Assembly (NCBI RefSeq): GCF_013167455.1
Contig: NZ_CP038328.1
Length of the DNA stretch: 64,000 nucleotides
Reading direction: 5' to 3' (one strand)
Source: Escherichia coli O157:H7
GTDB lineage: Bacteria; Pseudomonadota; Gammaproteobacteria; Enterobacterales; Enterobacteriaceae
Within the stretch, counting starts at the first letter, position 1; each line of letters opens with the position of its first letter. Shown in pieces: positions 30,001 through 33,000 of this stretch. A program made the position numbers.

Positions 30001-33000
30001 AACGAACCTGATTCGCCAGCAATGCCTGAATTTGCTTGACGAGCGTTGCAGCCTCTTCTTTGAAATCTGCCGCATGCGTAATCATGGGCTTTTCCCCGTG
30101 CAGTAATGACAAATAATCATTACTGGTATCCGCTTCGCCATCGAGGTTATCAACCTTCACACCAGTTAACAGCCCAACAGCAAATTGACGCGTCTCTTCT
30201 GTGGTCCGATAGTTAATCTTCAATTTTTTACTGCGACGACCACGGACGTTAATACCACACTGACCAAGAACGACCTTATTGCGATAAATACGCTGATGCC
30301 CATCCCCGACAATAAACAGATCGTTGGGCGACTCGGGAACCAGGCTGCGAATAAGAGTAAATGCCGGGGCACCGATATCTTGAGCTTCATCGACCACAAT
30401 ACTGCTATAAGGTAGTTGGACCTGCTTTTCTTTAAACAGAACAATAGCCTCATGCATGGCATCGCCCATTTCGCGCAGTTTGGCACGCGCCATTTGTGCT
30501 CTGAATTCTTCAAAGACTGGCCAGATTTTCGCCCGTTGAATACGGGATAACGCTGTACCACGTCCAACCCGGCTGACTTTGAGGTATTCCTCCCGGGTGT
30601 AAACCGCATTTGGCTGGACAACGCGTTGCCACTCTTCAGCATAGAAATTATCAGGTAGCCCCAGTTCGGCAGGTGCCTGCTGCAAGGCATAGTTCCAGCA
30701 TTTGCGTCGCCCTTCATCGCTGTCGTATACCACGCGGAAATCATAACCGTGGCGTTTTAGTTGGTCGCTCATCCAGGCATCAATGTTAACGACGTCAATA
30801 CGCGCCATCTCTTCTCGCGTACACAACCGCTGGAGATTAGCGCGAATATCTGCCGCCAGGTTACGCGTAAAGGTCGTGAAAAGTACTTTCTTACCGGGTT
30901 TATCTGCCAGACGCTGAGATAACCACCGCGCACGGTGCATCGCAACAACCGTTTTCCCTGTACCTGCACCGCCCAGTACTCGTACCGGACCATTAGCGGG
31001 CGACTCCACCAATTTTCGCTGGCTCGGATGCAGAAATACACGCCATTTTTCTAAAGGCGCATTAAGCATCTGCAACAGCTCCTGTTCATTTTCAACGACA
31101 TGGAAGCGACGTTTACTTCGTTCAATCGCCTCCATAAAGTCGTTGGTATCAACAGGCTCATCACGATGATCGTTAAACTCTTCCAGCACTTCCTGGTAAT
31201 CCAGCCCTTCTGCCAGCCAGTGCAGAGGTTCCCAGGCTTCTGCTGGCATTATGCTTTCAAGTTGATTAAGCCCGGCTTCATCGGTAAGCGCCATCACCTG
31301 ATCAATAAAGACAGGCGGCACACCCAGAGCCAGAATCTGTTCCGCGCTGTAAGCAGCGAAGAGTTTCGGTTTATCAACCACTGTTTCCGCTGCCGGTTTG
31401 ATATAGCTAATATCAATGACCTGAATCGCGCCGGTAACCGGGTGAATTGAACAATCATGCCGCCGCGCCCAGTCATATGCTTCGTCGTGTTTATCCACCC
31501 ACATCAGCATATACAGGGCACCCTGTTCAGGTTTCAGAACAATGCCGCGATAAGTTTGATCGATTCGCACCGAATGGACATTTTTACTGCGCGCATCGTG
31601 GATCTTTTCATAGTTAAGTCCATTACTGGTCGGGTCCTGACGGAATTTGGAGATGAATTCCTGCACCTTTTTTTGCTGTGCCTTTGGGATCCGCGCGAAT
31701 GCGCCCAGAAAACCATCAGAAAGTGCCACCTTGGGCGTTTGCACCGTCATTTGTCACCTCCGGACAGATGTTGCAATGTATTTTCGTCAATTGGCCCGAA
31801 TGCAACGTGCCAACCCCTGGTTGTGAATAATGGAATAAATTCTTGATTATCAATAATCAATGCCCATTTTTGTGATGGCCAGGCGAGATCGGCTTCCGCA
31901 ATAATTTCACCTTCATCATTTTGCAATTCGTAGCCGAGAGTCGGCGCAGAGAGAGAATGAGACTGAAGCAACGCGATCTCTTCAGCGCTTAATAAGCCAA
32001 ACTCAATAATCTCAGCCCAACTCTCATCAGTCTCTGGTACTGCCTCTGGCGTTGCCGAAACTTTAGTGTCAACGCTTTCCTGCGGTAAATGCACGGCTTT
32101 ACGGCTGGTAAAGGTCATATCCGGCAGGAACTGTAACAGGTTTACCAGTCGCCAGAAGCCATTGAGTCCCGCTTCATAACCGTCATCCTGCGTATAGCGA
32201 TCGTCAAAACAGATATGCAAACGCAGCCAGCTGCGCATTTGTGCGACGCTGGTCGTCGGTTTAATGGCTTGTTGTGGTAACACCGAAGCCAGCTCAATAA
32301 ATTGCTGCGATGAGTTACAGCTATCGAGTAAACCACCAAAGACAAACGGTTCGTCTGGCAAAAGCTCTGCTAGCCGCCAAGCTGGCGCGTTTTCCTGCAT
32401 TTCATAGGCATACTTTTGTTTCGTTCCCGCGTCCTGTGACTTCTTCACATCCAACCACACCCAGGCATGTGCAGCAGCCATTCTCTGCCATAACTGCGTT
32501 CTTCCGCCCGGATCGGCGAGATAATCCAGCAGCAGTGCAAAACTGTTGCGTTCCCGGAACGACGCTTCAAGGGCCGCAAAGTTGGTATCATGAAACAGGT
32601 TATAAAACTTAGGCTGTTTCATATCCGGGTTATGCCCAAGTCCCAGGACATCCTGAACATGTTTAAGCCCTGGCTCTTTGAGATCGGCCCACGTGACTGT
32701 CCACACCCAGAAATTACCGCTATCCCGAATCGCCTGGCGTTTTTGCACATCCTCTGCGACGCTATTTTTGTGGAACGCAAAGCCATCAAGGAAAATAGCC
32801 ACCGGTTTAATGGCATCAGACTGCATAAGCGGATATAGCACGTAATCCGGGCGACAAGGGATCCCCACCGCCTCTTTAGCGCCTAAATCCACCTGAGCTT
32901 TAAGATGCCAGCTCATCATCGGTTCGCTGCGGGTGTTAATAATCCACCCAGCGCCCTGATGCGCGTAACTGCGACTGACAATCAGGTTTTTATTTTCTTG

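What the first reader, a model, noticed from the sequence alone, without database searches (positions are those of the whole stretch)
31750..32100. Possible Vsr/DUF559-like endonuclease fold at the C-terminus of the 2113-aa helicase
The last 100 residues or so (…GYELQNDEGEIIAEADLAWPSQKWALIIDNQEF…GWHV…) resemble the acidic E/D...D pattern of very-short-patch-repair-like (DUF559) nuclease domains. If real, this protein would carry its own nuclease, which could explain the absence of a separate PLD nuclease. This is pattern recognition by eye, not an alignment.
Basis: inference. Interest (0 to 1): 0.5.

Follow-up and report, generated by a model that had tools for sequence, protein, structure and literature searches.

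The report
Degenerate DUF559-like tail of ArmC
The last 92 residues of the ARMADA type II defence helicase ArmC are a real, widely conserved domain descended from Vsr/DUF559 endonucleases. It has lost most of the catalytic residues, and the likely working nuclease is an intact Vsr-like domain about 300 residues upstream, as a 2025 preprint already proposed.

Summary

**Interpretation half right.** The domain keeps only the first catalytic Asp (D2067, acidic in 69/69). The ExDG Glu position is never acidic (0/69). An 11-12-residue deletion, present across the family, removes the His and the second Asp. It is therefore probably non-catalytic.

**Likely real nuclease.** The domain that replaces a separate PLD nuclease is probably the one at residues 1674-1807 (window 32668-33069). 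There E1689, D1748, D1768, H1773, D1780 and R1784 are invariant, and the RPD...DG..H motif aligns to E. coli Vsr.

**Prior art.** Bell et al. 2025 (PMC12458937) already list both Vsr-like domains, so the finding is already known.

**Addition.** The tail domain is homologous to the unassigned "nuclease-like" C-terminal extension of ZorE, encoded in the same island. It also occurs on UvrD-like helicases.

The parts
31747..38088 (-). armC: 2113-aa YprA-like DEAD/DEAH helicase of ARMADA type II, stop codon included
   Evidence: ORF, translation. DruE/DrmA/DpdJ-type helicase hits. 100% identical DNA in E. coli O157:H7 genomes. Walker residues K110 and D234 match the ArmC mutants of PMC12458937.
31750..32025 (-). 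C-terminal domain (CTD), residues 2022-2113: degenerate Vsr/DUF559-like domain, the subject of the finding
32026..32100 (-). Variable linker, residues 1997-2021, inside the finding's coordinates
   Evidence: Length-variable and poorly conserved in alignment A2.
32026..32667 (-). Middle region, residues 1808-2021, fold unassigned; ends in the invariant motif NLLQFL (residues 1983-1988, window 32125-32142)
32668..33069 (-). Upstream Vsr-like endonuclease domain, residues 1674-1807, with a complete catalytic signature: E1689, D1748, D1768, H1773, D1780, R1784
33175..33444 (-). MrfA-type Zn-binding (DUF1998/MZB) domain of ArmC, residues 1549-1638
   Evidence: Pfam PF09369, E 6.3e-13. Coordinates.
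29636..31750 (-). armD: 704-aa GajB/UvrD-like helicase. Its ATG overlaps the armC stop (ATGA, 31747-31750). Its Shine-Dalgarno GGAGG lies inside the last armC codons (SGGDK).
   Evidence: ORF, family hits, junction sequence read.
38088..43022 (-). armB: 1644-aa PglX/DrmMI-like type IIG methyltransferase
   Evidence: PADLOC REase_MTase_IIG, E 1.7e-286, plus DrmMI hits.
43025..45883 (-). armA: 952-aa DrmD/BrxHII-like SNF2 helicase
   Evidence: PADLOC DrmD, E 1.4e-99. NCBIfam DISARM_DrmD, E 4.4e-104.
59196..59420 (+). C-terminal extension of ZorE (residues 279-353 of the 367-aa ORF 58362..59465), homologous to the ArmC CTD
   Evidence: hhalign of A5 against ZorE: probability 98.1%, E 1.1e-13. hmmsearch E 1.8e-14. 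BLASTP to the ArmC CTD: 33% identity, E 3.5e-8. Reciprocal PADLOC ZorE2 hit on ArmC residues 2021-2096, E 5.8e-9.

Best explanation
The last 92 residues of ArmC are a DUF559/Vsr-family (PD-(D/E)xK superfamily) domain that has lost the Vsr-type catalytic machinery. It most likely acts as a non-catalytic accessory module. It may bind nucleic acid (as degenerate RAP domains do) or dock a partner, positioning or regulating the helicase-nuclease. DNA cleavage by ArmC would come from the intact Vsr-like domain at residues 1674-1807.

Shown here: homology to DUF559, the fold, which residues are kept and lost, and the deletion.

Inferred: lack of catalysis, the binding role, and that the upstream domain is the active nuclease. 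No nuclease mutant of ArmC has been tested.
For: - **Homology.** P0214 is DUF559 by Pfam (E 1.6e-11). It matches the CTD profile at E 2.5e-4 against 5.8 billion sequences and at hhalign 97.5%, E 7.8e-12.
- **Degeneracy.** In that alignment D2067 pairs with the first DUF559 Asp and is acidic in 69/69. The ExDG Glu position is hydrophobic in most CTDs and acidic in none (0/69). The DG Asp position is acidic in 21/69. The stretch from beta3 to the conserved Gly is 16-19 residues in 68 of 69 CTDs, against 29 in both P0214 and the upstream ArmC domain. This removes the His and the D..R helix start. No His is conserved.
- **Basic position.** K2074 is K31/R20/Q8/H3/E2, too variable for a catalytic Lys.
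- **Upstream domain.** It has invariant E, D, D, H, D and R residues and aligns to the Vsr motif RPDF…IFTHGCFWH.
- **Purifying selection.** 1631 diverged representatives exist, so the domain is functional rather than decaying.
- **Published support.** The main text of PMC12458937 calls the trailing Vsr domain 'inactivated'.
Against: - Two acidic residues (E2054 94%, D/E2067 100%) and a mostly basic position remain strongly conserved, which would suit a metal or ligand site.
- Bell et al.'s Table S2 labels this domain 'active? Vsr'.
- PMC13192584 describes the homologous ZorE extension as having a 'nuclease-like signature' that forms a pocket.
- I could not inspect model coordinates, so the spatial clustering of the conserved residues is untested here.
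- The residue equivalences rest on one bridging sequence and a profile alignment, not on a structural superposition.
Confidence: 0.65

Rival explanations
1. The CTD is an active nuclease with a non-canonical, reduced active site (E2054, E2065, D2067, K/R2074). It gives ArmC a second cutting activity, and gives ZorE a second nuclease beside its HNH domain.
For: D/E2067 is invariant and E2054 is 94% conserved. The domain descends from a nuclease family. It is labelled 'active?' in Table S2 of PMC12458937. PMC13192584 describes a 'nuclease-like signature… pocket-like surface' for the ZorE homologue. PD-(D/E)xK enzymes are known to relocate catalytic residues (general knowledge).
Against: The His and second Asp segment is deleted family-wide, and the ExDG Glu position is never acidic. 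The basic position is not a conserved Lys. No Pfam nuclease model matches any of the 69 members. The ZorE copy is shortened further, losing most of the helix between beta3 and beta4.
Confidence: 0.15
2. The CTD is chiefly a protein-protein docking or cross-talk module. It is a portable tail that lets ArmC, ZorE and some UvrD/GajB-like helicases engage a common partner or each other, and so underlies the synergy of the co-resident systems.
For: The same domain sits at the C-terminus of ArmC and of ZorE in one island. It also sits on a UvrD_C-containing protein, P0077. It occurs on a 498-aa protein that is translationally coupled to a GajB-like helicase and lies near a DrmD-like gene. AFDB hits include UvrD-like and DNA2-like helicases and HNH proteins. 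[quoted passage not shown]
Against: No stable ZorE-Druantia complex was detected (PMC13192584). No interaction data exist for ArmC. The conserved surface acidic residues fit nucleic-acid or metal binding equally well. Co-occurrence with ARMADA as opposed to Druantia was not tested here.
Confidence: 0.15
3. The resemblance to Vsr/DUF559 is a chance convergence of a small alpha/beta domain, and the tail has no evolutionary relation to nucleases.
Confidence: 0.05

Closest known systems
ArmC of ARMADA type II as annotated by Bell et al. 2025 (PMC12458937; representative WP_000937974.1)
   Different: Nothing differs in kind. This report adds a significant sequence bridge to DUF559, a residue-by-residue account of what was lost (including the 11-12-aa deletion), and the link to ZorE.
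DUF559 (PF04480) / REase_MTES_1575 (PF18741), Vsr-like clade of PD-(D/E)xK nucleases
   Same: Same fold. Shared N-terminal half motifs (GxPxPExxxE…AxADLAWPxxK) and the C-terminal AGWxV strand. The first catalytic Asp is retained.
   Different: The CTD lacks the ExDG…H…D..R catalytic block. It does not reach any Pfam threshold.
E. coli Vsr endonuclease (PDB 1cw0)
   Different: The CTD has no equivalent of Vsr His64, His69 or Asp97, nor of the Zn-binding insert. These residue names are from my recollection of Tsutakawa et al. 1999. The sequence itself was verified against 1cw0.
RAP domains of FASTK-like and mitoribosomal proteins
   Different: They are eukaryotic organellar RNA-binding proteins. 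No sequence similarity was detected.
C-terminal 'nuclease-like' extension of Druantia-associated ZorE (PMC13192584)
   Same: Homologous domain: hhalign 98.1%, E 1.1e-13. It keeps the acidic residue on beta1 (Asp in ZorE), the acidic residue on beta2, the Trp-Pro and the Lys.
   Different: It is fused to an HNH nickase instead of a helicase and lacks most of the helix between beta3 and beta4. That paper could not assign it to a nuclease family and does not mention ArmC.

Membership tests
Vsr/DUF559-like nucleases (PD-(D/E)xK superfamily) | alpha-beta-beta-beta-alpha-beta core fold superposable on Vsr/DUF559 structures | tested here: met
Vsr/DUF559-like nucleases (PD-(D/E)xK superfamily) | Direct significant match to Pfam Vsr (PF03852), DUF559 (PF04480) or MTES_1575 (PF18741) | tested here: not met
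   No Pfam match for the query or for any of the 69 family members. None in the C-terminal 1000 aa except MZB.
Vsr/DUF559-like nucleases (PD-(D/E)xK superfamily) | Homology demonstrable through an intermediate sequence | tested here: met
   P0214 is DUF559 (E 1.6e-11) and MTES_1575 (E 1.8e-7). It aligns to the CTD profile at hhalign 97.5%, E 7.8e-12 and hmmsearch E 2.5e-4 against 5.8e9 sequences.
Vsr/DUF559-like nucleases (PD-(D/E)xK superfamily) | First catalytic Asp on beta2 (Vsr Asp51; the DUF559 '…aDf/l…' Asp) | tested here: met
   D2067 aligns with P0214 D35 and is acidic in 69/69 sequences.
Vsr/DUF559-like nucleases (PD-(D/E)xK superfamily) | Acidic or metal-ligand residues on beta3 (DUF559 ExDG; Vsr Thr63-His64) | tested here: not met
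   The Glu position corresponds to I2078 and is acidic in 0/69. The Asp position corresponds to D2080 and is acidic in 21/69.
Vsr/DUF559-like nucleases (PD-(D/E)xK superfamily) | Catalytic His after beta3 (Vsr His69; DUF559 DG..H) and the following Asp (Vsr Asp97; DUF559 D..R) | tested here: not met
   Both lie in a 12-column gap of the CTD in the hhalign alignment. The segment is 16-19 aa in 68 of 69 CTDs, against 29 aa in P0214 and in the upstream ArmC domain. No His is conserved.
Vsr/DUF559-like nucleases (PD-(D/E)xK superfamily) | Mg2+-dependent endonuclease activity | not testable with these tools
   No biochemical data exist. Published ArmC mutants target only Walker A and B.
ARMADA type II system (ArmC) | Gene order: BrxHII/DrmD-like helicase, PglX-like methyltransferase, YprA-like helicase, GajB-like helicase | tested here: met
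   ORFs 43025-45883, 38088-43022, 31747-38088 and 29636-31750 are all on the minus strand and carry the expected family hits.
ARMADA type II system (ArmC) | YprA-like helicase with a DUF1998/MZB Zn module followed by a predicted active Vsr-type nuclease | tested here: met
   MZB, E 6.3e-13. The upstream domain has invariant E, D, D, H, D and R residues and the Vsr motif alignment.
ZorE C-terminal extension family | Significant profile match to the ZorE C-terminal ~75 residues | tested here: met
   hhalign 98.1%, E 1.1e-13. PADLOC ZorE2 model positions 282-357 hit ArmC 2021-2096, E 5.8e-9. NCBIfam ZorE, E 3e-4.

The most novel reading that the evidence does not exclude
The degenerate DUF559-derived tail is a portable, non-catalytic sensor or adaptor module shared by ArmC, ZorE and some UvrD/GajB-like helicases. 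By recognising one common DNA intermediate or partner, it is what couples ARMADA II, Zorya II and (indirectly) Druantia III into the synergistic island. If so, the enrichment of the ZorE extension in 'Druantia-associated' ZorE may really track co-residence with ARMADA.
Probability: 0.15. Interest if true: 0.6.

Novelty: already known. Interest (0 to 1): 0.25.

Why it matters
ARMADA II is the strongest of the three defence systems on the EHEC O-island 172 (10.1101/2025.09.22.677730), yet no nuclease site in it has been tested. Knowing which of the two Vsr-like domains can cut tells experimenters which residues to mutate. The prime candidates are D1748 and H1773, with E2054 and D2067 as the test of the tail. 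The shared tail of ArmC and ZorE gives one concrete, testable handle on how the co-resident systems cooperate. It also assigns the so-far unclassified ZorE extension to the DUF559 lineage. For the scan itself, the result is mainly a re-discovery of a published annotation.

Tried and rejected
- **Pfam.** The C-terminal 1000 aa gave only MZB. The CTD alignment, the upstream-domain alignment and the middle region gave no family. The only trace was a sub-threshold MTES_1575 hit (E 0.058) in 2 of 14 upstream-domain members.
- **PDB sequence searches.** The C-terminal 500 aa and profiles A3 and A4 gave nothing meaningful.
- **Internal duplication rejected.** hhalign of the CTD against the upstream Vsr-like domain gives probability 0.2%. 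The two domains are not a recent tandem duplication.
- **CTD against E. coli Vsr alone.** hhalign is not significant (5.7%). Only the alpha-beta4 'GW.V' stretch aligned.
- **Word-indexed homologue searches.** These returned mostly short fragments and little architecture information. Their value was the single bridging protein P0214.
- **Recent intra-island transfer rejected.** ZorE's tail is 33% identical to the E. coli ArmC tail, and other ArmC-type tails score higher.
- **Middle region.** Its profile hit designed armadillo-repeat proteins (E 6e-10). I regard this as a helical or compositional match and did not use it.
- **Model coordinates.** I could not obtain them, so I could not check whether E2054, D2067 and K2074 cluster in space.

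Full report
**Where this is.**
The window matches E. coli O157:H7 chromosomes at 100% identity over 29600-38100. The same stretch is present in 533 of 5426 complete E. coli genomes. PADLOC and NCBIfam scans and the ORF map identify three defence systems:
- Druantia III: druH 52421-55780 and druE 46107-52430 (-).
- A four-gene operon on the minus strand: a DrmD/BrxHII-like SNF2 helicase (43025-45883), a PglX/DrmMI-like methyltransferase (38088-43022), the 2113-aa YprA/DruE-like helicase (31747-38088) and a GajB/UvrD-like helicase (29636-31750).

This is the ARMADA type II system (armABCD) of O-island 172. It is described in PMC12458937 and in bioRxiv 10.1101/2025.09.22.677730. The Walker residues K110 and D234 that were mutated in ArmC in PMC12458937 are at those positions here. 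The exact protein sequence is on at least 1000 public contigs, named only 'DEAD/DEAH box helicase'.

**Checking the observation.**
The quoted peptide is the real C-terminus of ArmC. Window 31750-32100 covers residues 1997-2113. Alignment with homologues at 24-36% identity (A2) shows two parts: a variable linker (1997-2021), then a conserved block from W2024 to the end.

A profile of that block (A3) found 1631 cluster representatives at E<=1e-3 and 630 at E<=1e-10 among 1.84 billion proteins. The block ends within 25 residues of the C-terminus in 194 of 201 matches.

With a 69-sequence alignment (A5), AlphaFold2 gives pLDDT 90.4 and pTM 0.79. The topology is alpha1-alpha2-beta1-beta2-beta3-alpha3-beta4-alpha4. 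The feature is therefore a genuine, independently folding, widely conserved domain: residues 2022-2113, window 31750-32025.

**Is it Vsr/DUF559-like?**
By direct sequence methods, no:
- Pfam matches neither the query nor any of the 69 members.
- PDB sequence searches are empty.
- hhalign against E. coli Vsr is not significant.

The decisive link came from the last homologue search. P0214 is a 100-aa protein whose precomputed Pfam domains are DUF559 and MTES_1575. It matched the tail profile at E 2.5e-4 against 5.8 billion sequences. I re-scanned it: DUF559 E 1.6e-11, MTES_1575 E 1.8e-7. hhalign of A5 against it gives probability 97.5%, E 7.8e-12, 29% identity over the whole fold.

**Is it a nuclease?**
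The same alignment says probably not. The residue equivalences are:

| DUF559 protein P0214 | ArmC tail | State across 69 tail sequences |
|---|---|---|
| D35, first catalytic Asp (equivalent of Vsr Asp51) | D2067 | acidic in 69/69 |
| E22 on beta1 | E2054 | 65 E, 1 D |
| K42 | K2074 | K31, R20, Q8, H3, E2 |
| E46, Glu of ExDG | I2078 | acidic in 0/69 |
| D48, Asp of DG | D2080 | acidic in 21/69 |
| 'LHRQRDVFVKDT', carrying the catalytic His and the Asp of D..R | 12-column gap | deleted |

The stretch from beta3 to the conserved Gly before beta4 is 16-19 residues in 68 of 69 tails. It is 29 residues in P0214, 29 in ArmC's own upstream domain and 49 in Vsr. No His is conserved in the stretch.

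A Vsr-type mechanism is thus not available to this domain. Its importance in Vsr (Asp51 for metal binding, His69 and Asp97 for catalysis) is from my recollection of Tsutakawa et al. 1999. The retained E2054, D/E2067 and basic 2074 could still form a metal- or ligand-binding site. I could not test their spatial clustering because model coordinates are not exposed.

Residues 1674-1807 (window 32668-33069) read '…SELEKRF…CRPDYVLYP…KPVAIFLDGFAFH…EDVQKRQAIRDSG…VWTVTWADL'.
- In 14 homologues at 30-39% identity, E1689, D1748, F1766, D1768, G1769, H1773, D1780, R1784, W1796 and D1802 are invariant.
- hhalign aligns 'V..PsRPDFvl…PVAiFtDGf.fH' to Vsr residues 44-71, 'ASLPGRPDFVV…CVIFTHGCFWHHH' (E 2.7e-4). 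This pairs D1748 with Asp51, D1768 with His64 and H1773 with His69.
- By inspection, 'ELEKRFISCL' parallels Vsr 'AIEKRLASLL' (Glu25), and D1780 sits 11 residues before the conserved Gly, as Asp97 does in Vsr.

This domain carries the complete signature and is the better explanation for the absence of a separate PLD nuclease.

The two Vsr-like domains of ArmC show no profile similarity to each other (hhalign 0.2%), so they are not a recent duplication. The region between them (1808-2021) has no Pfam match. Its most conserved feature is an invariant NLLQFL motif at 1983-1988.

**What was already known.**
PMC12458937 states that ARMADA YprA homologues carry a predicted active Vsr-type nuclease. 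It adds that type II proteins 'often, but not invariably' have further 'inactivated' EEP and Vsr domains after it. Its Table S2 lists, for ArmC type II:

These are the same top hits that I obtained independently. The EDL933 paper speaks of 'non-PLD nuclease' domains in ArmC. No nuclease-site mutant of ArmC has been reported. The finding is therefore a re-discovery. What this analysis adds is a statistically solid sequence bridge to DUF559 and an explicit account of which catalytic elements are gone.

**A link that the papers I could read do not make.**
PADLOC's ZorE2 model and NCBIfam's ZorE model both hit ArmC 2021-2096. ZorE is encoded in the same window (58362-59465). Its residues 279-353 align to the tail profile at hhalign 98.1%, E 1.1e-13, hmmsearch E 1.8e-14, and 33% identity to the E. 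coli ArmC tail by BLASTP. Other ArmC tails are closer to ZorE's than the co-resident one, so this is not a recent intra-island copy.

PMC13192584 reports that 90% of Druantia-III-associated ZorE variants carry an extra C-terminal 'nuclease-like' region. That paper 'could not confidently assign' it to a family, proposes a role in synergy, and tested no mutants in it. It does not mention ArmC, and PMC12458937 does not mention ZorE. A full-text search for both names finds only the EDL933 paper, which does not draw the connection in the passages I searched.

The tail also occurs elsewhere:
- on a UvrD_C-containing protein, P0077;
- on a 498-aa protein, P0078, that overlaps the stop of a GajB-like helicase gene and lies near a DrmD-like gene (L001);
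- in AFDB, on UvrD-like, DNA2-like and HNH proteins.

It behaves as a portable C-terminal module of DNA-processing defence proteins.

**Most likely mechanism.**
ArmC is a YprA-type SF2 helicase. Its relatives DruE and MrfA load on 3' ssDNA or forks (PMC13192584). Cleavage would be delivered by the upstream Vsr-like domain. The tail is most plausibly a non-catalytic nucleic-acid- or partner-binding module that positions or gates that activity. From general knowledge, degenerate Vsr-like RAP domains are a precedent for RNA or DNA binding without catalysis.

I put 0.65 on 'DUF559-derived, not a Vsr-type catalyst, accessory role'. I put 0.15 on a reduced but active site, 0.15 on a mainly protein-docking or cross-talk role, and 0.05 on chance resemblance.

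**Verdict.**
- Observation: confirmed.
- Interpretation: half right. The family is correct, but the tail is the wrong domain for catalysis.
- Novelty: already known.
- Interest: low to moderate, mainly for the ArmC-ZorE shared tail.

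Noticed in passing
window 59196-59420 (+), ZorE residues 279-353: ZorE's unassigned C-terminal 'nuclease-like' extension is homologous to the ArmC tail encoded 27 kb away in the same island (hhalign 98.1%, E 1.1e-13). Through P0214 it therefore belongs to the DUF559 lineage. The held papers do not make this link.
   Followed up: partly
window 31747-31765 (-): The armC stop and the armD start overlap as ATGA. The armD Shine-Dalgarno GGAGG lies inside the last armC codons (TCC GGA GGT GAC AAA TGA = SGGDK*). The conserved 'SGGDK' end in enterobacterial orthologues may therefore reflect the ribosome-binding site rather than protein function. Any tail deletion must spare it.
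   Followed up: partly
window 32125-32142 (-), ArmC residues 1983-1988: The motif NLLQFL is invariant or nearly so in all homologues down to 19% identity. It is the most conserved stretch of the C-terminal 520 aa. It sits just before the linker to the tail, in a region with no Pfam match and only a weak 'EEP?' label in the literature.
   Followed up: no
L001 1525-3021, with neighbours 2-1528 and 4932-7784: In a metagenome contig the tail domain ends a 498-aa protein with an unknown N-terminal part. Its start overlaps the stop of a GajB/UvrD-like helicase gene. An Xre/RES toxin-antitoxin pair and a DrmD-like SNF2 helicase follow. This is another defence-island context for the module.
   Followed up: partly
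window 32026-32667 (-), ArmC residues 1808-2021: A profile of the middle region matches designed armadillo-repeat proteins (E 6e-10, profile positions 15-71). This is probably a helical or compositional match rather than homology. It gives no support for an EEP fold.
   Followed up: no
window 31457-31846 (+): A 129-aa antisense ORF spans the armC/armD junction and part of the tail-coding region. No evidence that it is a gene was sought.
   Followed up: no
window 29636-31750 (-), ArmD residues 1-240: The family hits on ArmD start at about residue 240. The N-terminal 240 residues are unmatched in PADLOC and NCBIfam. Bell et al. call this part a RelE-like RNase domain (HHpred 0.0085). It was not examined here.
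   Followed up: no
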